From: a virus
Direction: 5' to 3' (one strand)
Virus record (IMG/VR): IMGVR_UViG_3300046777_002658
Coordinates: 64,001-128,000 of that record
Length of the DNA stretch: 64,000 nt
How positions within the stretch are numbered: the first letter of the stretch is position 1; each line of letters starts with the position of its first letter. A program made the translations under genes and the position numbers. The notes beneath the pieces are model-generated. The model was given only the letters and a program-made list of their open reading frames with translations, searched no databases and was not told where the DNA came from. Below, one piece after another: positions 2 through 18,196 of this stretch.

Positions 2-3000
2 GTTTGGTTTAGCTATGACACAAGCATATCTCTGGAAGTAACTGAGCTTTTAGCAGAGTTTGGCTTTGCTTCTAAGTATGACTGCTTCTTGTTAAAACCA
101 GCATTAAGAGAGCCAGTTAACAAGGATGTCAAATCTATGTACATCACAGTACATACAAAAACCAAAGCTGGTGTAGCTTCAGGTTCTTTCACTGTGGGTG
201 ACACCACTATCCCAGTGGAAGTAGACCAAAAAGCTACAGAGCCAGCTAACAGACTGCTCTGTGTTAAGCAAGCAATCGCTTACGCTATTAACGCTGGGGC
301 AAAGGCTGTTTCGGTAGAAGTCAGCCACGCTAACTATGACCTGAACAAGTTAGCTGCATGGAAAGCTGCTGGCTTTAAAGGCAAGTCTAATGTTGAGTTG
401 CTAAAAGATATTGAGTCTCTGACTCACTACCTTTCTGTTACCTGGGTAAACCCTAAGAACAAAGCCAAAGAAGTGGCTAATACTGTAGTAAGAGAAACTG
501 TGGCACAAGTAACAAAGGTGCAGGCTTCCGTAACCACATCCCATAAAGTAATTGGTGGAGAGGCTTATGCAGAAGAAGGCTTACTGTATTACCCTAAAAT
601 CCTGTTTAAAGAAACCAGAGACTTACTGCTTGAAGATCTTCAAGCAGTTCTTGACAGTGGTGCTGTTGAGAAAACCAGCTTTGGTCCCTACCAGTACACC
701 TGTTTAGGTGACTACTACTGGACATGGGAAAACAAGAAGGGTGTCTACTCTACCACTCAACCAAATGGCTCTCCTGTCGCAGCTGTACCAAAGCGGCTGA
801 GAGAAATTGTTGAAGTCTGGTTAAATGGAGAGTTAAAAGTTTGGGAGGGTCAGTACGTAGTAGAATCTTGCCTTGTAAACTTCTACGAAGGCAAGCAGAA
901 GCTAAACTGCCATCAAGACATCTCTGAAGAGATTGATGCTCCTATTGTCTCTTTCTCCTTTGGTGCTACTGGTCGTTTCCTCATTCGTGAGGGAGCTCGC
1001 ACTGGTCGTATCTCTCATGAGTTCACTTTAAGTGACTCTGACTTACTTGTTATGTATGGCAAGCACAGATACTGCTGGCATGAGTATGCTGGCAACATTG
1101 AATCTGGTACAAGGATAAACTTAACCTTCCGCATGGTTAAGAAGCCTGTAGTAACCCAACCAGAGGTAAGAACTGTGGAGCAAAGGACTGTAAAAACAGA
1201 ACGTCTTGTTGATACTACTGCAGTGAAGCAGAATCAACAGCCTGCAGCAAGAACTGTTCAGGATAGAGTAAGGGTTAACCCAGACTTCAAGCCTCAACCC
1301 AGAGCAAAAACCTTGCCGGAGCCTGGTTTGCTACCTCAGTCAGAGGTTGGCAGAATCAGTGGCACTCCTCAAGGTTGCTCTCACATCTTTGACTTTAAAA
1401 ACAATGAGTCTAAGAAAGGTCTTGATGAGGTTATTGTAGCAGCTTTCGCTGTAAGGTTAGACCCCGTTAAAGGGCAGCCTGTAGAGTGTAACATTAACAC
1501 TCCCTCATATGCTTATAACGATGAGTTTACTCACTACGGGTATGAAGATACTCTTACCACTAAAAAGGGTGAGAATATGAATGTTATAAGCTTGGGTGCA
1601 GCCGCTACAAAGGCTCTACCAGCTCATCTGACACCAATTATACTTTCTGTTTGCAACCACTGTTTAAATGGTGTGCGAGAAGAGTTTATACCCACAGCTC
1701 TATCATCAGTGAACAGAGTTAACAAGAAGGCTAATCTGCAGATTATTCTTGGGCAACCAGGTGGTGAATCCTGCTTGACCAAAGAGAAAGCCATCCAGGC
1801 ACCAGAATCTAGCTCTAGACAAAAGATGGGAGCAGCTATACTAGAAGGTGAGTCTAAAGAAATCCCTTCCGTAATATTCCACGATGACGGACAGGGACAT
1901 ACTCCCACGTTTGTTAAGTTAGAATTTTCTGGAGATGGTCTAGAAACTATTCTTGCAGACGGTAAGAGACACATCTTTATCGTAGTTGCTTGGTACGACA
2001 AGAGCAAGCAAACTTACTTTGAGAAGGGGGGTAAGCAGTACAGAATCTACCCCCACACTGCTAGTGTCTTCCATGTTGATGACTTAGAAGCTGTCTTTGG
2101 TGGTCAGAAAGTATTTAAGTTTGATGAAAGAGCTCTTCTAGGGTTATCAGCAGAGCCTGTAGTTGAGGCTAAAGCTGTTAAACCAGAGGTTAAAGCTCTT
2201 AACAGACCTCTTATCAAACCAGAACCAACAAAAGCAACCTCTGAAGAGGTTACAGAAGTTCAACAGTCTGTTGATAAGGCAAATCTAGCCAAAGAGCTGG
2301 CAGATCTTCACAAAGCCACCAGATTAAAAGGTCTTCCACTGACCAAAGGTCTAACAGAAGAAGACTTAGAGAGCATATTTGTTTGCATGAGTCCTGATGG
2401 TCAGATAGCTCACAGAACTCTAAGCTACATCAAGTCCAGAACCGATGGCAAACCTGTGCAGCTGTTTGATTGGACTAAAGCTGATGTTCTTAAGGTAGCA
2501 AAAGTTTTTGTAGACCTTTTATCGCCTACAAAAGCAACAGCAGATCAACAGGTGTTCCGCTACCGCAATACTGAAGAGGGCTTGTTGCTTTCCTTTGACG
2601 CTGGAACTATTGAGTTCTTGATAGGCAATGATGGTCGTGCTTATAATGCTGCTGATGGTCGTGCCTTTGAGCAAGGCATGGAGCTGATAGGGTACAACGC
2701 TTTAGATATGTCTTGGTGGGACTCTCCAGAGTATGCTAAAGCTAAAGCAGCACTAGCCGCTGCGGGTAAGAAAGAACCTGAAAAAGATGTTTCTTACTTC
2801 CAAATAGTTAATGGAGAGGTTCAGACCAGAGAGGAGTACAAACCTGAAATCACAGATGTTTGTTTCTCCTCCTCCATCGGTAAGTTCATGCAGGCTTTCT
2901 GTGCTTACTTATTGATGTTTGCTCAAAGCAAGAACAACACTCGGGGGGGCTTGGGTGACAACTTTAAGATTCTTTTGAACAAGTGCGAGAGTGTTATCTC

Positions 3001-6000
3001 TATGACCGAAGGAGATATCCTTGGTCAAAATGGAGGTTTCTTGTACTCTGTGCAAAACAGTCCTAAACTGTACGTTCACAGAGAGCAGTGTGACATATTT
3101 GCACTAGAAGAAGACAAGCTGAAAGACTTGGCTAATTCAGTGGCAACAGTAGTCAAGGGTTATGATAAAAAGCCACCAGAAGAGATGCTCAAAGTGTCTT
3201 CCACTGACACTCAGTCTCTAGCTATGAAAGAAGCTTTCAAGAAGTATCCTGCTTTGGGCTTCCACTTTGCTAAGGGTACTTTTATCAATGGTCTGACCCA
3301 TCTCAGACTAGCTACTCTTCAAAAGTATGCTCCAAACTTGTTTAATAAGACTCTGCAACTAACAGGGTTATCAGTTGAGGCTGCTGTTGAAAGTGTTGTC
3401 TCTTTAACTCTAAAAGCTTCTAAGGGTGCTAAACGAGCAACTTTAGCCTTAGCCAGAGCTGTTGAAGTGTTAGGAGAAGTGAAAGCTGGCTGGGCTTTCT
3501 ATGGTCAAGAGAAGGTGCTGACAGGCTGGCTTGTGCAAGAGTGTATGGCTCCTACATTTGTCATGGCTCCTGGTATGTCCTTCTTCTTAGGCAATGAGGA
3601 GGAGAAACCAGTTGCTTTAGTCAAGAAGACTCAGACACAAAACTACCCCAAGTTCTTGGCTAGTAACCTTGCTGAGGCTGTGAGCATGACAGGCGTTACT
3701 GAGTATCAAAGATGCCTGGCAGATCACAGACCCACTCAAACCTATGATGAGGTTTCAGCAACCTACCGCATCACCTTTGATAAAGAGGTAAAGCTAATCA
3801 AAGGCACAGAAATTGCTTTTGTTAAAAAGGAAGAGGGTCAGGGAGCCGATGCCGTCATTATTTTCAATGACAACGAGAGAGCCACTCTCAATGAGATAAC
3901 CTGGAGAGTCCATAAGGATCTTGTAGGTGAGTCAGTCTTGGTAGTCAACTACTCTTACACCCTACACCACCGCAACCCTAAACTGCGTGGTGTCATCAAA
4001 ACCATGATGGCTTCCTGCAGTAAAGAGTTGTTGTACAACTTCTTTAATGAGCCAAAGTTAACAGCTTTGGGATTAAAGGACATCAAGCTAGTATGCCCGC
4101 AGGATACTATCAAGTCTGATATGCTGTACTCTTGGCTAATGGTGATAGGTAACACTATCAGACACAACGACCCAACTAACCCTCACATTGCTAAGTTGAT
4201 TAGCTTAAGAGATCAACTCAATGAAGAGATGATGGGTGGTGCTGATTACGACCCTGACACCATTGTCATTAACCCAGCAGCAGTAGTAGCTGGTCTCTAC
4301 TCTGACTTGATTGCTTATTTTGTTAAGCACTTTGGTCATTCCTTATGGATGCACGTTCAACAACCAGAAGACCAAGGAGAGATCATGAATCGCCTGTATG
4401 TTGACCGCGTTGCCCAAAAAGCTGGCTGGGTAGAAGTACCTAAGATAGCTTGGGGTGAGTATGAGGAGGCTCTAGCTACAGCTAGACGTATGGAAGGCTA
4501 TACAGTCAAGCTATACGCAGAGTCAGTTGATTATCTAAAGAATGACAAGCAGAATGCTTTGTTGTTTACTTTAGACGCTGATGGAGTGGTAGTTGAATAC
4601 TTCCATCGTTCGTTCTGTTTTGTGGGTGCTGAAGGAGCACCTGTCTATGGTGTAGAGCTATTCGAGTCTAGCACTGTGGCTGAGGCTATCTCTGACTCCA
4701 GACATATGCCACCATCTGTGCGTTCACTCTCTCGCATGGAAGGAGTTGCTTTTGATGATGCTTGGGCGCTTCTAAACGCTGGTAAAGAGAAGATGTTTAT
4801 GTCTTTGGTGATTGCTGGAATGTCATCCTGTGACAAGTTCAACTGCTCTAAGACAATAACAATCCTAGAGCGTGGTGCTGAGAAGGACAAGAACCTGATT
4901 CTCTCTCCAGAAGACAAGGATTATTTCAATAGCATTTTAGTTGAGAACAAAATCAGCTTGGATTTCCATGAAGAGGAGCAGTTTAAAGCTGTAGCTTATG
5001 CGTTCAGAGATATTGTGTTTGTAGCTAAAGGCAAGACCTACTGGCTACCTGCTTTGTTTGCTATCAACAGCTTGAAGTCTGAAAACTCTACAAACAACCT
5101 TGCTCAACAGTTCTTTAGAGATATTCTTGTTGAGTGTCTAGCTGGCAGAACTGTGCCCGCAATAGAAGGTTCAAGAGCTGCTGGTATCTTGGATAGTCTA
5201 TGTGACTCTGCTTCTACCAAGAAGTTAATCACTGCTGCTGATAATATGGCAGCCAAGCGGATTGCTCTGGCTCACATTCCTGCTGGAGAGATTCATATTC
5301 TCAAGAGTACACATCCTGCCAGTAACTACCAAAACCTGCTCAGACACAAGTTTGACTTGAAGAGCGTAGAGGCTGGTAAGTCTACTATCTTTGTTCACAA
5401 CTCTCGCGCTCCTCTAACAGATGGTTGTCTGTTAAAGCTTGTAATAGTAACAGAAGAGCAAAACAGTAAGAACTTCTGGAAGTTAGACTCTGACAGCTTT
5501 GCTCTTGGGAGTATGGGTAACGGCATGGACTTTGGTGACTTTGACGGTGACGGTCACTATTTTGTTCAGCTTGTGGGCACTGACTATACAGTATCTACCT
5601 TTGACAGCATTGCTGACTTTATCACTGATGCTGTTGGGTACAACATTTTCAACACCTATGCCAACCCAGAGAATAAGAAAGGAGAGCCAAACGAAGCTTA
5701 CCTAGCTGACCACTACAACATCAAGAAGTGGTCTAAGGTTGATGAAACCTTATGCAATATGGGAGTCAAGAAGGCTACAAAGTCTAGTGCTACCTACTTG
5801 ATGTATAACCAGAATGCGCGTGAGATGCAAGCCAAAGCAACTGGCATTGCATACTCTGTGTATATGTGGTCTGAACACCTTGTAGACATCCTTCTAGCGT
5901 ACAAGAAGCTAGGCGGTGTTTTACCATTTGGTTTTGAAGCTGCTGCTGATGGTAGTTTAGTAGCCCCTATCTCTCAAGTGTACGAAGTTATTCTTGGTGG

Positions 6001-9000
6001 ATTTTCAGACCCTGCTTGGGCAGTCTACACCAAATACTTCCTCAAAATGAAGGAAGGTGAGCGCACAGTGTTTGACCATAACTTAGCCGAGTTTAACAAA
6101 GACTTGATGGCTATGGGCATCACTGGTCAAAAGCAAGCAGGGTTTAGTGCTCTGATGTTTGCTTCTTACCACTTATTCTTTTTAGAGAAGTGGGGTGAGT
6201 TCAATGACTATGAAGTAGACATGGTTACTAAGAACCCACTACCTTTAGAACTAAAAGGTATGTTAGCCTGCGCGTTGGTTTCCTTTGAGCTGATGCGAGG
6301 TAAGTTCCAAGGGTTTGTTGGTGCTCTGGAAGTCGAGAAAGGTGGTAAGGTGACAGGTCACAAGACTGCTATGAACTTTGCTAGAACCTTCCTATTAAAC
6401 AATCCAGGCATGGTGAGTGAGTCATTAGTTTGTAAACAACTAGCTCAAACTATTGAGGTTTGTAATCACCTGCTAGAAGGTAAGCCTCGCCCAGAAAGAA
6501 CTCTTGCAACACCAGGAGTTATTCAAGAGCGCACTGTAGCTGTTCCTACTTCTAACTTGTCTGATGAGGCTTTACAGTATTTCTTAACTAAAGTAGGTGC
6601 ATCTGCTGTGGTTAAGGAGACTAATGACTCTGATGATGAAGGTGGCAGCAAGGTTAGTGCAGAACCTAATACTCCTGACAATGGAGATGGTGGTGCAGCT
6701 GTAGAAGCTATAGACTATGCTGCTTATCTAGAAACTGAAGAAGTTGCTGCTCCTACAATTGAAGAGCTTGTGTCTGTTAGTTCTGCGGTAGTTGAAGAAT
6801 ACTACTCTGAGTCAGAGCTAGAAGAGCCAGAGTTTGCTGCTACCCCAGCTGTTCTTACAACATCTGAACCAAGCAGCTCACAGTATGAGTTTGATGCAGA
6901 TGGTTTTCTTGTAAATTGGCTAGACCACGCGCTTGCCACTATAAACTGGCAAGAAGAAACTCTTGTGATTGACTACACAGGTTCTAAACCTTGTTACTTA
7001 CTCAAGGGTGAAGGTCTCAAGTTGCACTCTTTAGTATCAAAAGGTTGGGGAGGAGCCTACTACTTTGAGGGCTTAGGAGAAGATAAAAAGGCTCCAGTCA
7101 TCTTTATGGATCAAAGTGTTGAAAGAACCGTGAAGGCAGACCAAGAGTTTAATGAGTTAGTGAGTTCTTGGGCTGAGTGGGCTGGAGAAACTATCGAGGC
7201 GCCAGAAGAGTTCTCAAAAGTCCTGATGGTCAGAGGTGAGGTAATAATCATTGAAGATGAAGATGAAGAAGAGCCAGTACAATCAGAGGTAATAGAGAAT
7301 GGAACAAAACAGAAGATGGCGACGTTAATGCAAGTGGTAGAACAACTACCAGAGTCTGCTTTAGATAAGCTACTAGCTGAGGGTGAAAGGCTACTAGCAG
7401 AATTAACCAAAACTAAAGAGCCAGTAAGAGAGGCTCTTAAAACAATAGAACCTACTGTTACCTGTACTTCCTGCTTAACAGTAGCAGAACCAGTTACTGA
7501 TGAAGCACCCTCTATAGACATACCTAGTGAAGGGACACAAAAGCAGTCAATAGTTAGTTTTACCTCCAGAACTAAGAGGGCTGACAAACCAGAAGTAACG
7601 AACAGTTCGTCAAGAGAGATTCTTCAAGCTGAGTCTGTTGTAGAAAATGTTGAAGTTGTAAAAGCTCATCCTTTAGATGGTCTTGCACCTTTGAGGTCTT
7701 CCACAGCAAAACACATGATTAAAGACATAGCTATGGCTGCTGTGGCTACTCAGTTCATTGGTACAAGTGCTGTATCTAAACCTTCTAGCACAGAGCTTTA
7801 CAGACAAGCCTGGGCTGATTGGAAAAGTGGTTGTGCCAACACAGGTGTCTACACTGCTGCTGACGTAGTAATGGTATCTGGTAACGGCTTGGGGAGGGCT
7901 ACAGAGGCTCAAATAGTAGAAACCTTTGCAAAGAGCTATATCCCCTACCTGTTGTTGGTAATCAATGCCAAAGCCACAGTAGTAGTTGGTGACTGTCCTG
8001 GTATGGACTGTTGTGTCAGAGATTACTTAGTGGGGCATGGCTATCAAAATACATGGGTTGCTGCCAAGATTGGTGGTTATAACAGACTCACACCTCCCAC
8101 CCAGCGAGAAAGAAAACTTGAGAGAGCTGTAGTTAAACAGTCTGTAGAAGCTGTAAAGATTCAACCAGAAGGAGACTGGGTTGAGGCTCTTGTTAGTAAG
8201 TTAGAGCCTTGGACTGGTAACCAGATAAAGAAAGCTCTAGCAACTCTTAGCTCTGAGCAGTTAGAGGCTGCTAGAATCATCATCCAACACGCTCTAAGCA
8301 ACACTACCGCTAAAGTTGCAGAGTTAGACCCTAAAGACGTGGTGGGTGGTCACATCCTCACTGGTAAAGCTGGTACTGGTAAAACCTACGCTACTCTTGT
8401 AATCATCATAGTCCTAGACTTGCTAGGCTTTCGTGTGGTAGCTTGCGGAACCACGGGTCTGGCTAGTCAAAATCTCAAAAACTCTTCTGGTACAATAAAC
8501 AGGGTTTTAAGCTTGGGTACAGGCTTTGAAGAGAGAAAAGATACTGAGGGAAACCTGCTGCCAAGAACTGAGGCAGACATTAGCCAGATAATACTCAAAA
8601 TGAGTAAGGATGGTAAAGTAGCCAAAAGACTATCTGAGCAAAGCAACAACAAGAACTATATAGGAGTAGTTCTGCTAGTTGATGAAGCCTTTATGCTTGG
8701 AGGAGATTTAGGTATCGCCGCTGCTGAGGGCTTAAAGACCATTGTTGGGCTAGAAGCTCAAAATGGTAAAGTCCGTCAGAGACCTATTCAGTTATTAATG
8801 GTTGGAGATCCTAAGCAGCTAGAACCAGTAAAAGACAGAATGATATTCGAGGAAGGTGAGTTCCTAGAATATTCTGACAGCACAGAAGTTCAGAAATACC
8901 ACGCTTTTACAGACCGTCTGAATCTAAAGGTTATTAAGCTAGAGAAGAACGAAAGGCAGTCTGGTGATACTGCTTTTGGCTTAGAGTTGGACTTGCTGGG

Positions 9001-9826
9001 AGAGGGTAAAGCTAAAACAGACCTGAGTAACTGTCCTGTTTTGTTGAGTAGATTTAAGGCTTCTCTCTCATGCCAACCCGCAGATGCTTTGCATATCATC
9101 TACAATAATGATGAAGTTGCCAAGTTTAATAAGTCTAAGCTAGACGAGCTTGTCAAAAAAGGTGCTTTCAAAAGAAAGTTTGAGGCAATTATTGACTCTA
9201 GTAGATGTGGCGAGAGTGAATTGCTATCTTACGTTGCTCCTACTCCTAGAACTTTAGAGTTAGTAGTGGGTGCTCCTGTCAGAGTAACCCAAAACATCCC
9301 TAAGAACGATGGCACAGACAATCTGTTAGTAGCTAATGGCGAGCGCGGAGTTGTGGCAAGCATGACCAAAGACAAAGTGACCGTCAAGTTCAAGGATGGT
9401 CGCTTTGAGGAGCTAGAAGCTGTAGAATCCAGAAAAATTCCGGTAGACGAAAATGGTGCACCAATAGGATCTTTCAGACAGCTTCCCTTATGCTTGTGTT
9501 GGGCTACTACTTTTCATGGTAGCCAAGGTCAAACCTACCCTAAAGGTGAACCTGTCATAGTGCATATGTACTCTCGTAAGGGAGGTAAGCATGATGGAGA
9601 GCTTCAAAGAGTATGGTCTAACAACGCGTTCTACGTTGCTTGTAGCCGCGTAACCCGCTCTAAAGACTTATTCTTTTACACCGGGTTGGGTGTTGATGAA
9701 AAAGCTGAAGGAGTGACTGATGAGGAGTTCACCAAGCAAAGGATGAACACTTACTTCAATCACTTCAAGCAAAGCTACAGATTCAATGAGAAGGCTATTG
9801 CTTGGTTAAACAAGCAGTCCTGCTAG
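2..9826 (+). CDS. Giant multidomain protein (>3270 aa, 5'-truncated): RNase H-like, AlkB, two-barrel RNA polymerase, SLOG, Pif1-like helicase
   Basis: The track starts at TTG 89, but the frame has no stop back to base 2 (VWFSYDTSISLEVTELLAEFGFASKYDCF), so the true start is probably outside the window; ATG 137 is an alternative. Domain motifs are listed separately. Confidence 0.9.
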   Translation, partial: VWFSYDTSISLEVTELLAEFGFASKYDCFLLKPALREPVNKDVKSMYITVHTKTKAGVASGSFTVGDTTIPVEVDQKATEPANRLLCVKQAIAYAINAGAKAVSVEVSHANYDLNKLAAWKAAGFKGKSNVELLKDIESLTHYLSVTWVNPKNKAKEVANTVVRETVAQVTKVQASVTTSHKVIGGEAYAEEGLLYYPKILFKETRDLLLEDLQAVLDSGAVEKTSFGPYQYTCLGDYYWTWENKKGVYSTTQPNGSPVAAVPKRLREIVEVWLNGELKVWEGQYVVESCLVNFYEGKQKLNCHQDISEEIDAPIVSFSFGATGRFLIREGARTGRISHEFTLSDSDLLVMYGKHRYCWHEYAGNIESGTRINLTFRMVKKPVVTQPEVRTVEQRTVKTERLVDTTAVKQNQQPAARTVQDRVRVNPDFKPQPRAKTLPEPGLLPQSEVGRISGTPQGCSHIFDFKNNESKKGLDEVIVAAFAVRLDPVKGQPVECNINTPSYAYNDEFTHYGYEDTLTTKKGENMNVISLGAAATKALPAHLTPIILSVCNHCLNGVREEFIPTALSSVNRVNKKANLQIILGQPGGESCLTKEKAIQAPESSSRQKMGAAILEGESKEIPSVIFHDDGQGHTPTFVKLEFSGDGLETILADGKRHIFIVVAWYDKSKQTYFEKGGKQYRIYPHTASVFHVDDLEAVFGGQKVFKFDERALLGLSAEPVVEAKAVKPEVKALNRPLIKPEPTKATSEEVTEVQQSVDKANLAKELADLHKATRLKGLPLTKGLTEEDLESIFVCMSPDGQIAHRTLSYIKSRTDGKPVQLFDWTKADVLKVAKVFVDLLSPTKATADQQVFRYRNTEEGLLLSFDAGTIEFLIGNDGRAYNAADGRAFEQGMELIGYNALDMSWWDSPEYAKAKAALAAAGKKEPEKDVSYFQIVNGEVQTREEYKPEITDVCFSSSIGKFMQAFCAYLLMFAQSKNNTRGGLGDNFKILLNKCESVISMTEGDILGQNGGFLYSVQNSPKLYVHREQCDIFALEEDKLKDLANSVATVVKGYDKKPPEEMLKVSSTDTQSLAMKEAFKKYPALGFHFAKGTFINGLTHLRLATLQKYAPNLFNKTLQLTGLSVEAAVESVVSLTLKASKGAKRATLALARAVEVLGEVKAGWAFYGQEKVLTGWLVQECMAPTFVMAPGMSFFLGNEEEKPVALVKKTQTQNYPKFLASNLAEAVSMTGVTEYQRCLADHRPTQTYDEVSATYRITFDKEVKLIKGTEIAFVKKEEGQGADAVIIFNDNERATLNEITWRVHKDLVGESVLVVNYSYTLHHRNPKLRGVIKTMMASCSKELLYNFFNEPKLTALGLKDIKLVCPQDTIKSDMLYSWLMVIGNTIRHNDPTNPHIAKLISLRDQLNEEMMGGADYDPDTIVINPAAVVAGLYSDLIAYFVKHFGHSLWMHVQQPEDQGEIMNRLYVDRVAQKAGWVEVPKIAWGEYEEALATARRMEGYTVKLYAESVDYLKNDKQNALLFTLDADGVVVEYFHRSFCFVGAEGAPVYGVELFESSTVAEAISDSRHMPPSVRSLSRMEGVAFDDAWALLNAGKEKMFMSLVIAGMSSCDKFNCSKTITILERGAEKDKNLILSPEDKDYFNSILVENKISLDFHEEEQFKAVAYAFRDIVFVAKGKTYWLPALFAINSLKSENSTNNLAQQFFRDILVECLAGRTVPAIEGSRAAGILDSLCDSASTKKLITAADNMAAKRIALAHIPAGEIHILKSTHPASNYQNLLRHKFDLKSVEAGKSTIFVHNSRAPLTDGCLLKLVIVTEEQNSKNFWKLDSDSFALGSMGNGMDFGDFDGDGHYFVQLVGTDYTVSTFDSIADFITDAVGYNIFNTYANPENKKGEPNEAYLADHYNIKKWSKVDETLCNMGVKKATKSSATYLMYNQNAREMQAKATGIAYSVYMWSEHLVDILLAYKKLGGVLPFGFEAAADGSLVAPISQVYEVILGGFSDPAWAVYTKYFLKMKEGERTVFDHNLAEFNKDLMAMGITGQKQAGFSALMFASYHLFFLEKWGEFNDYEVDMVTKNPLPLELKGMLACALVSFELMRGKFQGFVGALEVEKGGKVTGHKTAMNFARTFLLNNPGMVSESLVCKQLAQTIEVCNHLLEGKPRPERTLATPGVIQERTVAVPTSNLSDEALQYFLTKVGASAVVKETNDSDDEGGSKVSAEPNTPDNGDGGAAVEAIDYAAYLETEEVAAPTIEELVSVSSAVVEEYYSESELEEPEFAATPAVLTTSEPSSSQYEFDADGFLVNWLDHALATINWQEETLVIDYTGSKPCYLLKGEGLKLHSLVSKGWGGAYYFEGLGEDKKAPVIFMDQSVERTVKADQEFNELVSSWAEWAGETIEAPEEFSKVLMVRGEVIIIEDEDEEEPVQSEVIENGTKQKMATLMQVVEQLPESALDKLLAEGERLLAELTKTKEPVREALKTIEPTVTCTSCLTVAEPVTDEAPSIDIPSEGTQKQSIVSFTSRTKRADKPEVTNSSSREILQAESVVENVEVVKAHPLDGLAPLRSSTAKHMIKDIAMAAVATQFIGTSAVSKPSSTELYRQAWADWKSGCANTGVYTAADVVMVSGNGLGRATEAQIVETFAKSYIPYLLLVINAKATVVVGDCPGMDCCVRDYLVGHGYQNTWVAAKIGGYNRLTPPTQRERKLERAVVKQSVEAVKIQPEGDWVEALVSKLEPWTGNQIKKALATLSSEQLEAARIIIQHALSNTTAKVAELDPKDVVGGHILTGKAGTGKTYATLVIIIVLDLLGFRVVACGTTGLASQNLKNSSGTINRVLSLGTGFEERKDTEGNLLPRTEADISQIILKMSKDGKVAKRLSEQSNNKNYIGVVLLVDEAFMLGGDLGIAAAEGLKTIVGLEAQNGKVRQRPIQLLMVGDPKQLEPVKDRMIFEEGEFLEYSDSTEVQKYHAFTDRLNLKVIKLEKNERQSGDTAFGLELDLLGEGKAKTDLSNCPVLLSRFKASLSCQPADALHIIYNNDEVAKFNKSKLDELVKKGAFKRKFEAIIDSSRCGESELLSYVAPTPRTLELVVGAPVRVTQNIPKNDGTDNLLVANGERGVVASMTKDKVTVKFKDGRFEELEAVESRKIPVDENGAPIGSFRQLPLCLCWATTFHGSQGQTYPKGEPVIVHMYSRKGGKHDGELQRVWSNNAFYVACSRVTRSKDLFFYTGLGVDEKAEGVTDEEFTKQRMNTYFNHFKQSYRFNEKAIAWLNKQSC
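137..480 (+). other. Degenerate RNase H-fold domain of the giant protein
   Basis: AWKAAGFKGKSNVELLKDIESLTHYLSVTWV resembles the RNase HI segment WKxxGWK...KNxDLWxxL...xWxWV; the catalytic YTDG is replaced by VHTK. Confidence 0.55.
560..1135 (+). other. AlkB-family 2OG-Fe(II) dioxygenase domain
   Basis: CLVNFY, HQD at 911-919, IVSFSFG, distal His at 1079 and RINLTFR at 1112-1132 form the complete HxD...H...RxxxxxR set. Confidence 0.92.
3500..5580 (+). other. Single-chain double-psi-beta-barrel (two-barrel) RNA polymerase core
   Basis: GDFDGD with DFDGD at 5537-5551, preceded 44 aa earlier by SRAP (5402-5413; cf. beta' NRAP). Upstream PKLRGVIKT (K at 3980 and 3998) then IKLVCPQD is a candidate beta-like lysine-pair region. 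Confidence 0.8.
7715..8090 (+). other. SLOG (SMF/DprA/YpsA-like) domain
   Basis: KDIAMAAVATQFIG...SST..Y...ANTGVYTAADVVMVSGNG...VVVGDCPGMDCCVRDYL pattern. Confidence 0.6.
8200..9680 (+). other. Pif1/RecD-like superfamily 1B helicase domain
   Basis: Walker A GKAGTGKT (8363-8386), TTGLA, Walker B LLVDEAFM (DE at 8681), VGDPKQLEPV, NERQ, NGERG, ATTFHGSQGQT, YVACSR. Confidence 0.93.
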
Positions 9827-9875: not shown

Positions 9876-9905
9876 TTGACAGAAAGTCCCAATGTCCTGT
9901 ACCCT
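9876..9905 (+). promoter_or_regulatory. Possible host sigma-70 promoter
   Basis: TTGACA (9876-9881), 18-nt spacer, TACCCT. Confidence 0.35.
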
Positions 9906-9945
9906 TAATATAGAAAAAAAGAATAAAGAGTGTAAACACCACTTT

Positions 9946-10001
9946 GAGAAGCTAGTTTGATATCTTTCACCCCTCAGATATCTGGTGATAACTAGCTTCT
10001 C
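9946..10001 (+). terminator. Long hairpin between two motif copies
   Basis: GAGAAGCTAGTT...AACTAGCTTCTC (12 bp) with an inner GATATCT/AGATATC stem. Confidence 0.6.
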
Positions 10002-10054
10002 TTTCTTTAGAAAAAAAGAAGAGTGTTTGCAATATTCTTTAAAGGTTTCAAATC

Positions 10055-10684
10055 ATGTCTTTATTACAATTGTCTCTAGAAGCTGGTGTTCCAAAATTCT
10101 GTGTTGACCAAATTGCTCAAGGTGATGGTCGCATTACTTTTGAGGCATCTGATTTGGAAATGTTGACCTTTAAGGTCTGGAACGTCTATGAGGACACACC
10201 AGGTCAATTCCAGATGATGGTGACCTTCCAAGGTCATTGTCTTGGTGAGTATGAGTTGCAAAGTCTACCTGAAGACCTTCACACCTTAGAGCAGCAGCCT
10301 GGGTATTTTAAACTATCTGGGTATATCCTGGAAGTTGCGGAAGACGTGCCTGCTGAGGTAGCTGCAGCAATGTCTGCTTTTGCTCAATGGAGCAAAGAAA
10401 ACAAGGGTGTCAAAAACCCTGCTAATCGTCCTCACTTATTTTATAAAGTGGCTAGTGCAGAAGCGTTAATTCAGTTAGTTGTGTGTTCTAGCTATAACAA
10501 GTCTACCAAAGTTAACGAGCTCAGCTTTAACGGCTGGGCTTACCAAGGCCTGGAATGGGCTGGAAACGGAATAGGTAGCATCAAAGCTACCAAGACTGGT
10601 ATAAGTGGTTATACCAGAAAGGTGCTGCCTCCAGCACCTGTAGCTCCCCCAGCTCCCCCAGCTCTTACTCTTAAGTCACGATAG
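10055..10684 (+). CDS. Hypothetical protein (209 aa, Pro-rich C-terminus)
   Basis: ORF after motif copy 10010 with an AAGG RBS. Confidence 0.85.
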   Translation: MSLLQLSLEAGVPKFCVDQIAQGDGRITFEASDLEMLTFKVWNVYEDTPGQFQMMVTFQGHCLGEYELQSLPEDLHTLEQQPGYFKLSGYILEVAEDVPAEVAAAMSAFAQWSKENKGVKNPANRPHLFYKVASAEALIQLVVCSSYNKSTKVNELSFNGWAYQGLEWAGNGIGSIKATKTGISGYTRKVLPPAPVAPPAPPALTLKSR

Positions 10685-10880
10685 GGGGTAATAAACCAAT
10701 TGATCTACTAAAGACCAATTGGTTTATTATTATTTTGTTGTACACAGCCCGGCGGGGACTACAGAGCCTCCAGCGATCGCTCTTTGGACAGGTGACAGAG
10801 AGAAAGGGGTGTACATCTAAATCTTCCTTTCTTAGAAAAAAAGAAGAGGGAATGGAATTATTAGTATTAAAGGAACAATC

Positions 10881-11294
10881 ATGACTAACGTATACTTCTT
10901 CTCCCGCCACGAAGCTCAAGAAGCAATGGTATCTGACTTGGGTGGAACTATCACTCAACAGTTCCGAGGCACAATCTCTAATGTTAAGCGTGTTGGTGAC
11001 GGCATTGAGTTCCAAGAGATTCCATTAGGTGAAACAGCTCCTGTGGTACACACAATTCCTGCCGATTCTATAGTCGTTGCTGTAGCTCCTCTGCCTTTAC
11101 AAGAGGCTTGGCTGAGAGCTGGTGTTTCTGTGTTCCTTGCGCCACAGAACAAGCGCGAGACCACAGAGTCTGGTGAAGTAGTTTTTAACTACGCAGGGCT
11201 GTTACAAGTCCTGAAGATTGAAGTAGTAACCCAACAGTGGGTTGGTACTGCTGTTAGTCTAGAGGACAAGCACGCCGAGCGTAGTGCTTTATAA
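10881..11294 (+). CDS. Hypothetical protein, possibly Csx16/Csx20-like (Crn1-type ring nuclease fold)
   Basis: N-terminal VYFFSRH, central DSIVVAVAPLPL and C-terminal KRETTESGEVVF; AAGGA RBS. Family call is from memory only. Confidence 0.45.
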   Translation: MTNVYFFSRHEAQEAMVSDLGGTITQQFRGTISNVKRVGDGIEFQEIPLGETAPVVHTIPADSIVVAVAPLPLQEAWLRAGVSVFLAPQNKRETTESGEVVFNYAGLLQVLKIEVVTQQWVGTAVSLEDKHAERSAL

Positions 11295-11375
11295 AGAATG
11301 TTGGGAGCGATCGCGCTCTCACTTTCTTTTAAAGAAAAAAAGAATAGTGAGTGGAACTTATTTTTTTAAAAGTAT

Positions 11376-11585
11376 ATGTGGTCAACAACTATATCCAACC
11401 CACCTCTACCAGGATGGGTGCTACCAGATGGTAGCAAAATACTTGAAGTATTTGATGGAGATGTAAACGCCCTCCACCAGGTGTACATGGGTATAGCAAA
11501 GGTTGAATCCCCAACGGGGGAAGTAAGAATTGTGAGGGCTGACTGGTGGGTATCACCGGATGGCTCTCTGTTTATTGAGCTTTGA
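11376..11585 (+). CDS. Hypothetical protein (69 aa)
   Basis: ORF between motif 11334 and hairpin 11590. Confidence 0.75.
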   Translation: MWSTTISNPPLPGWVLPDGSKILEVFDGDVNALHQVYMGIAKVESPTGEVRIVRADWWVSPDGSLFIEL

Positions 11586-11589
11586 ATTT

Positions 11590-11626
11590 AGTTAACTCAT
11601 TAGAGTATTAACCTAATGAGTTAACT
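11590..11626 (+). terminator. 14-bp hairpin with T-run
   Basis: AGTTAACTCATTAG/CTAATGAGTTAACT followed by C and a T run. Confidence 0.7.
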
Positions 11627-11684
11627 CTTTTTTTTGATATAAAAAAGAATAGTGAATGAAATTATTAGTATTAAAGGAACAATC

Positions 11685-11861
11685 ATGACAGAGCAAGAAA
11701 TTTTACAATTGGCTTCTCTTTTAGAAAGAGCCAAACAAGCATTAACCTCTCCCTCAGGCTGTTTGCCTGAGTTCATTTATGTAGAGAAAGGTAAGGGGGA
11801 AATAAAGGGTTACACACCCTATATTGCAAATGGGGGGGCAAACTTTCTTTTCCCTCTCTGA
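11685..11861 (+). CDS. Hypothetical protein (58 aa; track start 11652)
   Basis: ATG 11685 follows TTAGTATTAAAGGAACAATC, the same leader as before 10881. Confidence 0.7.
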   Translation: MTEQEILQLASLLERAKQALTSPSGCLPEFIYVEKGKGEIKGYTPYIANGGANFLFPL

Positions 11862-11899
11862 GGAGGGAGAGGTAATTAAAGTAGAATCCGCAATCTACT

Positions 11900-11956
11900 A
11901 ATATTAATGGTTAAAGAAGAAGAAAAGAATTAACTCCTTCTTTAACCATTAATATT
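11900..11956 (+). terminator. 20-bp hairpin with T-run
   Basis: AATATTAATGGTTAAAGAAG/CTTCTTTAACCATTAATATT then a T run. Confidence 0.7.
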
Positions 11957-11991
11957 TTTTTTGTAAAAAAAAGAATAGTGGGTGCAATATT

Positions 11992-12192
11992 ATGGAGTTT
12001 TCTATGACTCGCGAAGAAGCTTTAAACACTAACTTAGTGCAAACCGGCGACTACTTCGTCTACAAAGTGGTCCAGGTTAAAGAAACAACAGTAGTTGTAA
12101 CTCCCTACAAGGGGGAGCAGTGGGGTGAGCAGTGGGGTGAGCACAATGAGTACAGGCTAGACAGCCTGTACCCCTACGATGGGGCTTTATAG
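11992..12192 (+). CDS. Hypothetical protein (66 aa)
   Basis: ORF after motif 11965; internal GEQWGEQWGEH duplication. Confidence 0.7.
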   Translation: MEFSMTREEALNTNLVQTGDYFVYKVVQVKETTVVVTPYKGEQWGEQWGEHNEYRLDSLYPYDGAL

Positions 12193-12264
12193 TAACTGGG
12201 GGAAGCAATCCCCTTTTAAGAAAAAAAAGATAAATGAATGAAGTTTGTAACTCTAGGAGTTATC

Positions 12265-12336
12265 ATGACCGCATTTATTTATATTCTCTTAGTTTACTTT
12301 TATCTGTGGGCTATGGATGCCCACACTCGAGATTAA
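12265..12336 (+). CDS. Small hydrophobic peptide (23 aa), not in the track
   Basis: AGGAG RBS then MTAFIYILLVYFYLWAMDAHTRD*, after motif 12220. Confidence 0.4.
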   Translation: MTAFIYILLVYFYLWAMDAHTRD

Positions 12337-12559
12337 AGGGAAAAAGAAAGTAATGAGAAAAGTAAGTAATTTAGAGTTTAACCTAGCAACCAGCGGACAC
12401 GCCTGGCTGCTGGAATTAGAAGTAAACAACCAGGTAGTAGCCTCCCAGCTACTACTACTTGAGGAGCCGCCGCTCCTCAAACAGCAGAGGGAGTTTCGTG
12501 CGGAACACCCCCTTCAACATGGGGGTGTTGTGAAGTTTCATCCTGTAGTAAGGGAGTAA
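12317..12559 (+). CDS. Hypothetical protein
   Basis: ORF followed by an 11-bp hairpin at 12564-12594. Confidence 0.65.
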   Translation: MPTLEIKGKKKVMRKVSNLEFNLATSGHAWLLELEVNNQVVASQLLLLEEPPLLKQQREFRAEHPLQHGGVVKFHPVVRE

Positions 12560-12653
12560 CTTTGATTGCCTATCTAATCTCTGGATAGGCAATCGCGCTC
12601 TCTTTCAAAGAAAAAAAAGAATAGTGGATGGAATTGTCACACCAAAACTTACA

Positions 12654-12977
12654 ATGAGAAAAACATCAGAAGAGTTGAAAGAAATAAGAAAACAGAAGAG
12701 AATAGCAGCCTGTCAAGCTGCTATAGAAAAATATAACAGGTTGGACAAACCTGTTTATGCTTACACCACAAGTTGTGGTGACCCGTGGGTTCCAGAAAAG
12801 GAAGTTGCCCTTCCCCTATATTGGGAGGAGGAACACAAGGAACTAAAGTTTTACACAGATTTTCTGTGGGGGATACTCAATGCTATTAACTATGAAATCC
12901 CTGACTGTGATTCTTCAACAGTAGTATTTAGGGAAAGAGGGGAGGGGGGAAAGATTGAAGAAATTATAACGGAGTGA
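12654..12977 (+). CDS. Hypothetical protein (track start 12624)
   Basis: ORF after motif 12610. Confidence 0.75.
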   Translation: MRKTSEELKEIRKQKRIAACQAAIEKYNRLDKPVYAYTTSCGDPWVPEKEVALPLYWEEEHKELKFYTDFLWGILNAINYEIPDCDSSTVVFRERGEGGKIEEIITE

Positions 12978-13058
12978 AGGAGGGGCTGGCGCGGGCTGGC
13001 TCTTTTTCTTCAAAAAAAGATAAGTGAATGAAATAATATTTTCTAAGGAGAAGCAATC

Positions 13059-13592
13059 ATGGCTATTTTAAACTTTAGAGGTCACACACAAGAAGTAGAG
13101 ACTCTTAACAACCAAGAGTTCACTGCTCCCGTTGTTAGAGTAGTAAACTCCAACAGTTACTGGTATAGAGCTTACTTAGAAGATGGCAGTATAGTTCAGT
13201 TCATACTTCCCCAAGTAGAAGACAGTTTTAAGTTTATAAACTGTCTTTTAAAATATAAAGGACATGAACTTCATGTCCTTCTCAAAGAGGAAGAGTTTCC
13301 TGACTCTTCGATAGTCTCCATCTCCTTTACTAAAAGATACTGCAAAGCAGTATATAAAAATGGAGAGGCAGTGGAGTTTAGGTTTTTCAAGTACGAAGAT
13401 TCTATCCCGTTTAGGGATAACTTTCCGCTTGAAAAATACAAAGCAGCCCTAGCTGCAAAAACAATGGTTGAGCAGGCTATCTTTGAATACCAAAAGGAGA
13501 TGGAAAAACTAGGAGCCGTGAACTGCTATGACTCGACAGAGTCGTGGTTAGAGATAGAAGATATTCCAGACTATGAGTGGAATCTCTTTTAA
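13059..13592 (+). CDS. Hypothetical protein (177 aa)
   Basis: AAGGAG RBS; motif 13012 upstream; hairpin 13619-13652 downstream. Confidence 0.85.
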   Translation: MAILNFRGHTQEVETLNNQEFTAPVVRVVNSNSYWYRAYLEDGSIVQFILPQVEDSFKFINCLLKYKGHELHVLLKEEEFPDSSIVSISFTKRYCKAVYKNGEAVEFRFFKYEDSIPFRDNFPLEKYKAALAAKTMVEQAIFEYQKEMEKLGAVNCYDSTESWLEIEDIPDYEWNLF

Positions 13593-13702
13593 TCTGCGGA
13601 GTGCTGCAAGAACACCTTTTCTACCTATCTTCCATCACCAAGATAGGTAGAAGGCTTCCAGCCCTTTAAAGAAAAAAGATAAGTGAATGATAAGAAGAAG
13701 CA

Positions 13703-13963
13703 ATGATGTATAAACCTACAGCTTTTGAGAATGTAACTTATACATATACAGGTTATGACCTTGATGGTCAGCCTGTATATCAAAACGAACAGGGGGAGAG
13801 AACAACCCCCGAAGCTTTAATAGAGCAAGGGGCAACTGTGCCTCTTGGCAACACTGTTGTTCTAAAAGAACAACATGATGTCTGTGTCTACTGCGGCACA
13901 GACAACGGGCTCCACGGGGTTAGGAGGAGAGGCTACGAATGCTGCTCCTGCGGCAGTGCTTAA
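13703..13963 (+). CDS. Small protein with C-terminal zinc-ribbon-like cysteines
   Basis: CVYCG...CCSCG. Confidence 0.7.
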   Translation: MMYKPTAFENVTYTYTGYDLDGQPVYQNEQGERTTPEALIEQGATVPLGNTVVLKEQHDVCVYCGTDNGLHGVRRRGYECCSCGSA

Positions 13964-14005
13964 CCTCCCCTCCCTCTAACTCAACGTAAGGTAAAGGAAG
14001 AAATA

Positions 14006-14257
14006 ATGAACACTATCCGCGTGAAAGAAGAAAATTTATCATCTATTGTTCAAGGTTTACAAGAAGCTGGCTTTTCAGCCAAGGCTTCTAAATGCACCCC
14101 TCTGAGTCAGTGGGAGCATGATCAAAACTCTGATTATGACTTCGAGCATTGGACGTTCAATTCCCTCATTGGTATGAGGGGTATTGAAACCAATGCAAGT
14201 GGGAAGCAAGCCCACAAAGTCATTAAAGCCCTCAAAAAGGAGGGCAAAGCAAAATAA
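14006..14257 (+). CDS. Hypothetical protein (83 aa)
   Basis: AAGGA RBS; 16-bp hairpin at 14272-14313 downstream. Confidence 0.8.
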   Translation: MNTIRVKEENLSSIVQGLQEAGFSAKASKCTPLSQWEHDQNSDYDFEHWTFNSLIGMRGIETNASGKQAHKVIKALKKEGKAK

Positions 14258-14368
14258 TAAACATTGATTAGGGTTTAGGTAGTAGTTAGACCTCTTTAAC
14301 TACTACCTAAACCTTATTCTTTAGAAAAAAAAAGAATAGTGAGTGGAACTTATTAGTAAATTACAGCC

Positions 14369-15196
14369 ATGTCCATCAAGATAAAATTTCCCCAATTCTC
14401 ACACCACTCAGATGGCACTGTTTGGGTGCACCTTGATGGTGTGTATTGGCTAGACAAAAGTAACGAAAGATGGTTTGTATCGGGGGTTCACCCCCAAGGT
14501 ACCAACAGCCTTAGTTCTTGCAAAGGAGAGGTTGCCTCTCCGTTTTTCTTCAACCAGGAAACTGAAGAAGCTTTCCCTCTTTTCTTAGCTGCTATTGCGG
14601 CTAAGAAAGCAGAATTAAAAGCTTTCTCCCTCCAGACAGAGGGGATGGATAAGTTAGAAGCCATTAAGTTGGCAAGGGAACAGTTTGACATGAGTCTCAA
14701 AGAAGCCAAGGAATTGGTAGAAGGGTGCCCCAGAACTCGCTACTCTGTCACACCTCTCCCCGTAGAAGTTTTTCGGGTTGAGGAAAGCAACCACCCTACC
14801 GCAGAGGAGGATCAACTCTGCAGCGTGAAGGGTCTCTGGAGTGGGAAGATGACCCTTCCAGCTTCTCTACTGGCACAAGTAGAGGAACTGATTGATTGGC
14901 AAGAGCCGTTGCTTTCTGCAGACTTCGAGCCCTCCTTAGTCCAACTGTTGGACACAGGAGAATGCGTTGGAGAGACTGAAAAACTACTCCTGCGCTTCAA
15001 AGTTGATACAGAGGAGGAAACCACAAGCCTCTGTAGTTGGAAAATACGTGAAGAAGGAAAAGATTTGGCTCCTGACTTTTCCTGCCTGCGGGTAACCACG
15101 CTCGATGCAGCACCAGCCTTGTACTCTATGTACTTGGCAGGGAAAGCAGATGAAGCTGAACGTTGGAAACAGCGTTTAGCCCTATTAATCAAATAG
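14369..15196 (+). CDS. Hypothetical protein with a ribosomal L7/L12 C-terminal-like segment
   Basis: DKLEAIKLAREQFDMSLKEAKELVEG (about 14648-14725) resembles the L7/L12 CTD KIAVIKAVR...GLKEAKDLVE. Confidence 0.6.
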   Translation: MSIKIKFPQFSHHSDGTVWVHLDGVYWLDKSNERWFVSGVHPQGTNSLSSCKGEVASPFFFNQETEEAFPLFLAAIAAKKAELKAFSLQTEGMDKLEAIKLAREQFDMSLKEAKELVEGCPRTRYSVTPLPVEVFRVEESNHPTAEEDQLCSVKGLWSGKMTLPASLLAQVEELIDWQEPLLSADFEPSLVQLLDTGECVGETEKLLLRFKVDTEEETTSLCSWKIREEGKDLAPDFSCLRVTTLDAAPALYSMYLAGKADEAERWKQRLALLIK

Positions 15197-15262
15197 ATAT
15201 TAAGGGGAGGGGGGGGCTATCCCCCTTTTTCTTATAAAAAAGATAAGTCAGGGAGAAAGTCA

Positions 15263-15484
15263 ATGAGGCTGAACAAGAATAAACAACCTTCCCATATTGA
15301 GAAAGTGTTATCAGCTTTAGAAAGTCAGACTCATGGTGCTACAAGAGAGCACTTGAGAGTAATAACTGACCTTCCTAATGATGTTGTTGAAAGAAGATTA
15401 AAAGAGCTCGTTGAGCAAGGAGAGGTTGAGTTAATCAAACGCCCGGGCAGGAAAGGCTACCTTTATCTTAAAAAAGAAGAGTGA
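15263..15484 (+). CDS. Small winged-helix DNA-binding protein
   Basis: ATREHLRVITDLPNDVVERRLKELVEQGEV pattern. Confidence 0.65.
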   Translation: MRLNKNKQPSHIEKVLSALESQTHGATREHLRVITDLPNDVVERRLKELVEQGEVELIKRPGRKGYLYLKKEE

Positions 15485-15511
15485 AGGGAATTTTGTTAAA
15501 GAGAGGGAAGC

Positions 15512-15763
15512 ATGGAAATAGTAGTAATTCTAAAGAAAATTGGCAAGCACAGCGAAGTGCAGCCAATAGTATTCTTTGACCCAGCAGAGGGTCATAAATA
15601 CTGGGAAGAGATTAAAGCAGACTTCTTACGGGACGAAGACAGTCGTTATTACGACTGTGAGCTCTGGCAAGGAAAGCCAGACTCTCTGAGAAGGATAGAA
15701 TACTTACAGGGGGCTTATAACATTAAAAGACTGGTCAACCTATCAAGGCAACCAGTCTTTTAA
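15512..15763 (+). CDS. Hypothetical protein (83 aa)
   Basis: ORF after motif 15470. Confidence 0.7.
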   Translation: MEIVVILKKIGKHSEVQPIVFFDPAEGHKYWEEIKADFLRDEDSRYYDCELWQGKPDSLRRIEYLQGAYNIKRLVNLSRQPVF

Positions 15764-15784
15764 TTTAAAAAAGTATAGAGTAGC

Positions 15785-16597: not shown

Positions 16598-16690
16598 ATT
16601 AACAGCTTATTAGCAGAAGTGTGTGCGATCGCTCTTTCAAAGAAAAAAAGAAGAGTGAGTGAAGTTATTTGTTGTTTAAGGGGGATTACC

Positions 16691-18148: not shown

Positions 18149-18196
18149 GCGGAAGGGGCTTGATGCCCCTTTTCTTAAAGAAAAAAAGAATAGCGT

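What the first reader, a model, noticed from the sequence alone, without database searches (positions are those of the whole stretch)
2..9826. Giant single-chain RNA polymerase fused to AlkB, RNase H-like, SLOG and Pif1 helicase domains
Seen: one uninterrupted ORF over 3270 aa with SRAP...GDFDGD, an upstream KLRGVIK lysine pair, a full AlkB motif set and a full SF1B helicase. Established: RxP...DxDGD is the active site of two-barrel polymerases; single-chain versions exist (SPbeta YonO, crAss-like virion RNAPs), and as I recall some cyanobacterial RdRP-like proteins carry SMF/DprA or RNase H fusions. Inference: a self-contained machine that unwinds, repairs and transcribes (or primes) DNA. I know of no described RNAP carrying both AlkB and a Pif1 helicase.
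Basis: partly seen in the sequence, partly recalled or inferred. Interest (0 to 1): 0.93.

Follow-up and report, generated by a model that had tools for sequence, protein, structure and literature searches.

The report
Cyanophage RNA polymerase-helicase fusion protein
A large freshwater virus of cyanobacteria encodes one 3,918-residue protein that joins an unrecognised family of cell-type RNA polymerase to a DNA-unwinding motor and a base-repair enzyme, and a shorter relative sits unannotated in the model bloom-killing phage Ma-LMM01, which was thought to rely wholly on the host's transcription enzyme.

Summary
Real, and longer than reported: the ORF starts 1.9 kb upstream of the window (3,918 aa) in a 197-kb phage related to Fukuivirus (Ma-LMM01/MaMV-DC), probably infecting Nostocales. 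An AlphaFold model of aa 1720-2780 (pLDDT 89.5) is a single-chain two-barrel RNA polymerase (QDE-1 Z 12.2, Rpb2 Z 10.9, P74-26 gp62 Z 9.4) with invariant RxP, DxDGD and lysines. AlkB and an SF1B helicase are confirmed; SLOG is plausible but unproven; the RNase H-like part is weak and lacks catalytic acids. The core defines a family of 86 clusters with no profile match to YonO or crAss gp66; it includes unannotated Ma-LMM01 gp064. The helicase is the stable partner (fused in 32/74, next gene in two others); AlkB is swappable cargo. A second polymerase-like giant lies in the virion module, and 39 plus-strand copies of a candidate promoter follow the gene: a P23-45-like two-polymerase scheme. Activity is inferred, not shown. 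No paper found describes it; this scan noted a virion polymerase of this lineage and a helicase-polymerase-NADAR fusion on other genomes.

The parts
2..9826 (+). Last 3,274 codons of a 3,918-aa ORF (genome C1:62070-73826; starts 1,931 nt before the window)
125..499 (+). Degenerate RNase HI-like segment (aa 686-810); catalytic acids absent; only in the 8 closest relatives
   Evidence: weak
578..1132 (+). AlkB-type 2OG-Fe(II) dioxygenase (aa 837-1021) with H948-x-D950, H1004, R1015/R1021
3401..4696 (+). beta/Rpb2-like barrel region (aa 1778-2209), aligned to Rpb2 760-1105
3614..3967 (+). Sandwich-barrel-hybrid (beta-flap-like) insert (aa 1849-1966)
   Evidence: E. coli beta-flap 3tbi_B Z 5.3, rmsd 3.6, 93 aligned; biotinyl domains at the same place; moderate
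3980..4114 (+). Invariant basic/acidic residues K1971, R1973, K1977, D2012, K2015 (candidate phosphate-binding lysines)
5240..5572 (+). beta-prime-like double-psi barrel (aa 2391-2501) with R2446-x-P2448 and D2490-x-D2492-G-D2494
6500..7640 (+). Acidic, poorly conserved linker of about 380 aa; variable cargo slot (AlkB, NADAR in relatives)
7667..8119 (+). SLOG-like module (aa 3200-3350) shared with cyanobacterial multidomain and DxDGD proteins
   Evidence: family assignment indirect
8282..9814 (+). Superfamily 1B (Pif1/RecD2/Dda-class) helicase, motifs I-VI intact
9902..46726 (+). 28 window copies (39 in the genome, none on the minus strand) of an A-tract motif, consensus AAGAAAAAAGAAtAG, mostly 30-70 nt before start codons and often right after a terminator-like hairpin; candidate promoter of this polymerase

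Best explanation
This is the non-virion, DNA-dependent RNA polymerase of a roughly 200-210-kb Fukuivirus-related myophage of Nostocales cyanobacteria. Shown by computation: one chain holds both catalytic barrels and a flap-like insert; an SF1B helicase and an AlkB domain with full motif sets are in the same chain. Inferred: (1) the gene is among the first expressed, probably by the second polymerase-like giant of the virion module (C1:41425-53187), as gp96 expresses gp64 in Thermus phage P23-45; (2) the enzyme then reads the A-tract motif and transcribes the early and middle genes that follow its own gene; (3) the tethered 5'-to-3' helicase works with it on the same DNA, most simply by opening or clearing the template for a sigma-less enzyme, or by removing roadblocks and R-loops; (4) AlkB, and NADAR/DUF4326/SLOG-like modules in the same slots of relatives, are exchangeable passengers that remove base damage or host-added marks from the single strands the machine exposes. 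Odds: two-barrel fold 0.97; active phage transcription enzyme 0.8; non-virion role 0.7; helicase coupled to transcription 0.45.
For: Fold: pLDDT 89.5, pTM 0.88; QDE-1 Z 12.2, rmsd 5.8, 406 aligned over model 17-1018; Rpb2 Z 10.9; in the wide search the top ten rows are all two-barrel polymerases, with P74-26 gp62 Z 9.4 and P23-45 gp96 Z 9.3; ESM Atlas rows are RNA_pol_Rpb2_6/Rpb1_2 clusters. Catalytic residues invariant in 75 sequences. Role: orthologue Ma-LMM01 gp064 lies directly upstream of, and on the strand of, the ten early genes gp063-gp054 (PMC5780444); gene order capsid cluster / virion giant / ORF69-like / polymerase / small genes is shared with MaMV-DC. Motif: 39 plus, 0 minus copies, starting 76 nt after the stop codon, same pattern in four relatives' loci; strict pattern 12 copies against 0-1 in Markov controls. 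Helicase link: fused in 32 of 74 cores, 23 of 28 in this protein's clade, scattered elsewhere, and the next gene in two unfused members (L021; L109, where that gene also carries AlkB). Cargo exchange.
Against: No activity, expression or virion data. The fourth (MgB) aspartate of two-barrel enzymes has no obvious invariant counterpart at the expected place. Ma-LMM01 gp064 has no helicase and none next to it, nor has L108, so the core does not always need one. The A-tract motif is absent from three more distant relatives' loci (L017, L021, L027) and could be read by the virion enzyme or be a translation signal. About 380 poorly conserved residues separate polymerase and helicase, which allows independent action or cleavage.
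Confidence: 0.6

Rival explanations
1. The polymerase is a transcription enzyme, but the fusion is only a way to co-express early functions: helicase and AlkB act on their own (recombination, replication, repair), perhaps after cleavage in the acidic linker.
For: Long unconserved linker; 39 of 74 cores have no fused helicase and gp064 has none; the genome shares RecA and a repair helicase with MaMV-DC, a context for a Dda/RecD-like helicase.
Against: Fusion or adjacency recurs in separate clades and in both orders (C-terminal in 32, N-terminal in 2), with helicase plus AlkB next door in L109. No protease domain was detected.
Confidence: 0.2
2. It is a virion-packaged, injected polyvalent protein (as N4 vRNAP or crAss gp66) that transcribes the first genes and brings counter-defence domains in with the DNA.
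For: Giant size; conflict-type passengers (AlkB, NADAR, DUF4326, SLOG-like); every early gene has the same candidate promoter.
Against: It lies outside the morphogenesis cluster, at the head of the small-gene region; another giant with RxGSP and GDNDGD motifs sits beside the head genes and resembles MaMV-DC ORF82. In P23-45 the enzyme in this position is non-virion.
Confidence: 0.12
3. It is a replicative primase-helicase: the helicase unwinds 5'-to-3' and the two-barrel core lays RNA primers, or it acts as an RdRP on single strands as QDE-1 does.
For: Best structural match is QDE-1; primase-helicase fusions with this polarity are established (own knowledge, T7 gp4).
Against: The genome has its own DnaG-type primase and DNA polymerase homologues elsewhere; the flap-like insert and a strand-specific upstream motif point to promoter-directed transcription. 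QDE-1 ranks first mainly because it is single-chain.
Confidence: 0.08

Closest known systems
Thermus phage P23-45 gp64 / P74-26 gp62 (non-virion RNAP) with gp96 (tape-measure-fused virion RNAP); PMC10770324
   Same: Single-chain two-barrel fold (Z 9.4 and 9.3); two polymerases per phage, one in a virion giant and one at the head of the early region; private AT-rich promoter motif.
   Different: 8% identity; gp62 is about 600 aa with no helicase, AlkB or other passengers (the paper does not mention helicases); roles here are inferred.
Microcystis phage Ma-LMM01 gp064 (BAF36155) / MaMV-DC ORF65 (AGR48630), annotated hypothetical
   Same: Family HMM E 4e-10 over about 430 aa with KLR, RTP and GDADGD motifs; best BFVD match, E 1.4e-13, TM 0.45/0.55 (the 839-aa fragment is half of ORF65's length, so I take it to be ORF65); same genomic position.
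   Different: 1,677 aa, no helicase or AlkB; never described as a polymerase in the papers searched.
QDE-1 / RDR2 eukaryotic RdRPs
   Same: Best structural match over both barrels (Z 12.2, 406 aligned); DxDGD.
   Different: 11% identity; this core has a flap-like insert, which RdRPs and YonO lack (PMC7824862).
SPbeta YonO and cyanobacterial YonO/RdRP-like proteins (PMC2919709)
   Same: Single chain, DxDGD; the SLOG-like module is shared with cyanobacterial DxDGD proteins.
   Different: No profile match of the core to YonO or to those cyanobacterial proteins.
crAss-like virion RNAP phi14:2 gp66
   Same: Large single-chain two-barrel phage enzyme; weak BFVD matches to crAss giants (E 5e-4).
   Different: No profile match; gp66 is packaged, has DFDID, and its hosts are Bacteroidota; no fusions of this kind are reported in PMC7886860.

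Membership tests
Two-barrel RNA polymerases | beta-prime-type double-psi barrel with DxDxD in a loop | tested here: met
   Model 672-782 aligns with DPBB domains and Rpb1/beta-prime; D771-D775 in a loop before strand 776-782; invariant
Two-barrel RNA polymerases | Invariant R-x-P upstream of DxDxD | tested here: met
   R2446, P2448 in 78 of 78 cores
Two-barrel RNA polymerases | beta-type barrel with two conserved basic residues | tested here: met
   Model 59-490 aligns with Rpb2 760-1105, Z 10.3-10.9; K1971, K1977, K2015 invariant; residue-level superposition not available
Two-barrel RNA polymerases | Fourth aspartate for the second Mg (Rpb2 D837 / QDE-1 D709) | tested here: inconclusive
   No invariant acid in the first beta-barrel strand region; D2012 and E2199 are invariant candidates
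Two-barrel RNA polymerases | Template-directed NTP polymerisation | not testable with these tools
   needs purified protein
YonO / RdRP-like family | Profile similarity to YonO | tested here: not met
   hhalign probability 0.07%; HMM score -1.0 bits
YonO / RdRP-like family | No SBHM (flap) insert in the beta barrel | tested here: not met
   Flap-like insert at model 130-247, Z 5.3; moderate confidence
crAss virion RNAP (gp66) | Profile similarity to phi14:2 gp66 | tested here: not met
   hhalign probability 0.08%
crAss virion RNAP (gp66) | Packaged in the virion | not testable with these tools
   position argues against
P23-45-type two-polymerase system | Second DxDGD polymerase inside a giant of the virion module | tested here: inconclusive
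   C1:41425-53187 has RQGSP, GDNDGD and an NKG motif and matches MaMV-DC ORF82 (E 3e-5); not folded here
P23-45-type two-polymerase system | Phage-specific promoter motif before early genes | tested here: met
   39 plus / 0 minus copies; function as promoter not shown
AlkB 2OG-Fe(II) dioxygenases | HxD...H triad, RxxxxxR and Pfam score above cut-off | tested here: met
SF1B helicases (Pif1/RecD2/Dda) | Motifs I-VI and profile match | tested here: met
Pif1 family in the strict sense | Pfam PF05970 above cut-off | tested here: inconclusive
   13.8 bits against 25.9 here; relatives P0037 and P0020 pass
SLOG superfamily | Profile or fold match to a SLOG family | tested here: inconclusive
   No direct hit; homologous module in P0116 overlaps a weak YAcAr hit, E 0.0065; not folded
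RNase H | Catalytic D-E-D acids | tested here: not met
   positions read H, L and H-like residues in all five aligned copies
RNase H | Fold or profile similarity | tested here: inconclusive
   7.2 bits to RNase HI, about 1 in 1,000 by shuffling; none to other RNase H domains

The most novel reading that the evidence does not exclude
A widespread, undescribed family of sigma-independent phage RNA polymerases that use a tethered or co-encoded SF1B helicase as their promoter-opening motor and carry exchangeable erasers (AlkB, NADAR) to clean the template as they go; with a virion polymerase it gives Fukuivirus-like cyanophages a private transcription system, which would explain how Ma-LMM01 runs its gene programme while host transcription hardly changes.
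Probability: 0.35. Interest if true: 0.92.

Novelty: new variant of a known kind. Interest (0 to 1): 0.78.

Why it matters
It adds a family of single-chain two-barrel polymerases (86 clusters at 50% identity) that Pfam, PHROGs, NCBIfam and PDB sequence searches miss, and the first architecture I could find in which such an enzyme is regularly fused to an SF1B helicase. It also makes an open question testable in a cultured system: Morimoto et al. (PMC5780444) found that Ma-LMM01 expresses three gene classes with 0.17% of host genes changed, concluded that it uses only host sigma-70 polymerase, and asked how timing is controlled; gp064, just upstream of its early genes, is a member of this family. 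These phages infect bloom-forming cyanobacteria, and a single-chain, promoter-specific enzyme could be a tool in the way T7 polymerase is.

Tried and rejected
Sequence searches of the core against Pfam, PHROGs, NCBIfam, PDB and cultured phages found nothing; the link to Fukuivirus came only from the fold. A first model from 7 close sequences failed (pLDDT 45) and was not searched. hhalign of the family against YonO, gp66 and the upstream giant was not significant. No stand-alone SLOG-like relatives of 75-240 aa or in cultured phages. RNase H-like segment: no useful hit in PDB or plasmids. No sigma-70 consensus before the gene (a simple scan). No shared 8-mer before the Ma-LMM01 early genes in a crude count. 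The ORF at C1:60796 that I took for a transposase found nothing in genomes. Moraphages (PMC12619734) are another lineage. The polyvalent-protein paper (PMC5512222) does not list this architecture. The 2012 Iyer and Aravind paper was not held. Tree caveats: FastTree, 901 columns, rooted on MaMV-DC ORF65; cores under 800 aa left out; some 'no helicase' rows may be contig-edge fragments. Tracing as an assembly artefact was rejected: 13 independent full-length or near full-length relatives.

Full report
Observation. Window 2-9826 is one open frame. The genome is a single 196,877-bp IMG/VR virus record, 94% complete, and the frame begins at C1:62070, giving 3,918 aa. Numbers below are for the full protein. 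Thirteen relatives at 48-87% identity in the core, on freshwater metagenome contigs of up to 211 kb with the same gene order, exclude an assembly artefact.

Flanking domains. AlkB (aa 837-1021) scores 100.5 bits on PF13532 and keeps all metal and 2-oxoglutarate ligands. The C-terminal helicase matches PHROG 325 (E 1e-35) and solved Pif1 proteins (E 1e-6) and keeps motifs I-VI; I call it SF1B rather than Pif1, since Pfam PIF1 is under cut-off. The module at aa 3200-3350 has no direct family hit, but occurs at 45-50% identity in 44 mostly cyanobacterial multidomain proteins, next to cpYpsA SLOG, RNase H, DUF4326, AlkB or ART domains, and in 1,600-2,000-aa DxDGD proteins of Trichormus and others; in one it overlaps a weak YAcAr (SLOG) hit. 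SLOG is therefore likely but not shown. The segment at aa 686-810 recalls RNase HI weakly, lacks the catalytic acids and is confined to the eight closest relatives.

The core. No sequence library recognised it. A profile search of 1.84 billion representatives returned 86 proteins of up to 4,532 aa; R-x-P and GDxDGD are kept in all complete ones, with K1971, R1973, K1977, D2012, K2015 and E2199 invariant or nearly so. With 50 sequences AlphaFold gave pLDDT 89.5, pTM 0.88. Foldseek's top PDB rows are all Rpb2/beta or beta-prime chains. VIA-align gives QDE-1 Z 12.2 (rmsd 5.8, 406 aligned, spanning both halves) and Rpb2 Z 10.9; the wide search adds P74-26 gp62 (9.4), P23-45 gp96 (9.3), RDR2 (8.3), isolated double-psi barrels at model 672-782, and the E. 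coli beta-flap at model 130-247. So this is a single-chain two-barrel polymerase with a flap-like insert. The family has no profile match to YonO or phi14:2 gp66.

Which virus. The best viral structure match is a MaMV-DC protein (E 1.4e-13). The genome shares terminase (36%), capsid (30%), sheath (27%), DNA polymerase, primase, RecA and rIIA with MaMV-DC. The family HMM finds MaMV-DC ORF65 (E 4e-10), which is 98% identical to Ma-LMM01 gp064 and present in all cultured Fukuivirus-like genomes held. A transposase of this genome is 94% identical to copies in Sphaerospermopsis NIES-73, pointing to a Nostocales host (inference); one distant family member comes from a Leptolyngbya assembly.

Two polymerases. 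A second giant (C1:41425-53187, 3,920 aa) beside the head genes has RQGSP, GDNDGD and an NKG motif and matches MaMV-DC ORF82 around the active site; I did not fold it. The order head cluster, virion giant, ORF69-like gene, this polymerase, small genes is shared with MaMV-DC. In Ma-LMM01, gp064 lies directly before the ten early genes, yet the transcriptome paper concluded that the phage uses host sigma-70 polymerase only (PMC5780444). The arrangement matches P23-45, where a tape-measure-fused virion enzyme transcribes the gene of a non-virion enzyme and each has its own motif (PMC10770324).

Candidate promoter. Following a lead from earlier notes, I tested the A-tract motif: 12 strict copies against 0-1 in controls; by weight matrix 39 on the plus strand and none on the minus, dense right after this gene and scattered through the replication region, absent from the minus-strand structural genes. 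Most lie 30-70 nt before an ATG and many follow a hairpin. Four relatives show the same pattern; three distant ones do not. Two copies lie inside the 5' part of the polymerase gene, and relatives also have internal copies, which could let the enzyme make a shorter form of itself. Which polymerase reads the motif is not known.

What is stable and what is cargo. In a tree of 74 cores, 32 carry a C-terminal SF1B helicase (23 of 28 in this protein's clade, nine scattered in other clades) and two an N-terminal one. In two of three unfused members whose contigs I read, the helicase is the next gene, once with AlkB in it. AlkB is fused in 5 of 74: before the core here, after it in P0020, P0021 and P0027, with NADAR in P0020; other relatives carry DUF4326, NADAR or an amidoligase. 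The helicase is thus the recurring partner and the rest are exchangeable passengers of the kind linked to host conflict (PMC7824862).

Mechanism. Most likely: an early-made, non-virion DNA-dependent RNA polymerase that transcribes the phage's early and middle genes from the A-tract motif, helped by a tethered helicase and carrying base-cleaning enzymes. The fold and domain content are computed results; timing, promoter use and helicase coupling are inferences. Rivals are co-expression without coupling (0.2), an injected virion protein (0.12) and a primase-helicase or RdRP-like role (0.08).

Novelty. Single-chain two-barrel phage polymerases and two-polymerase phages are known. This family, its helicase fusion and its presence in Fukuivirus were not found in the paper library. 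Earlier notes of this scan reached related ideas on other genomes; I saw them after my own tests and do not count them as support. Verdict: new variant of a known kind, interest 0.78.

Noticed in passing
G000 C1:41425-53187 (L002:5425-17187 +): 3,920-aa giant beside the head genes with RQGSP (2664), GDNDGD (2726), an NKG motif (1421) and a faint PLD hit; probable virion polymerase, related to MaMV-DC ORF82.
   Followed up: partly
G000 C1:183614-196333 (L003:6614-19333 -): 4,239-aa protein with PLD-like HxK motifs near the N-terminus, long hydrophobic Gly/Ala stretches and a peptidase M23-like region by eye; looks like a tape-measure or ejection protein.
   Followed up: no
G000 C1:62834 and 63014 (L001:7834, 8014): Two copies of the A-tract motif inside the polymerase gene, read as KKKEQ in the protein; internal copies also in L004, L007, L008 and L011. 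Possible internal promoter and shorter isoform.
   Followed up: partly
L001:6999-7035; L004:9931-9965; L027 before 6001: Strong hairpin plus U tract about 40 nt before the polymerase start codon, kept with stem changes in L004 and L005, followed by a conserved stretch up to the ribosome site; a hairpin in the same place precedes Ma-LMM01 gp064, and gp064 and gp066 share TAGTGGT after it.
   Followed up: partly
P0002 aa 1090-1720 (window 1337-3230): About 600 conserved residues before the core with no family hit; not folded. May be the protrusion/lobe or promoter-recognition part.
   Followed up: no
L109:7580-12196: Separate 1,538-aa gene right after a family polymerase, with an N-terminal SF1B helicase and a C-terminal AlkB.
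   Followed up: yes
G000 C1:159795-160961 (L015:16795-17961): TnpB-type transposase 94% identical to Sphaerospermopsis NIES-73 copies and 69% to a MaMV-DC copy; host clue.
   Followed up: yes
OR578708 (Microcoleus phage My-WqHQDG) 1765-2595: Hypothetical protein matching the active-site region of MaMV-DC ORF65 (E 1e-13) in a 30-kb phage record.
   Followed up: no
window 54598-61701 (-): 2,367-aa ORF with a tail-fibre-like start, in a minus-strand block with 61713-63065 and C1:127497-131543.
   Followed up: no
P0119, P0120, P0132, P0136: Cyanobacterial 1,800-2,000-aa proteins with RDFDGD/RDYDGD and the same SLOG-like module, but a polymerase core of another family.
   Followed up: partly
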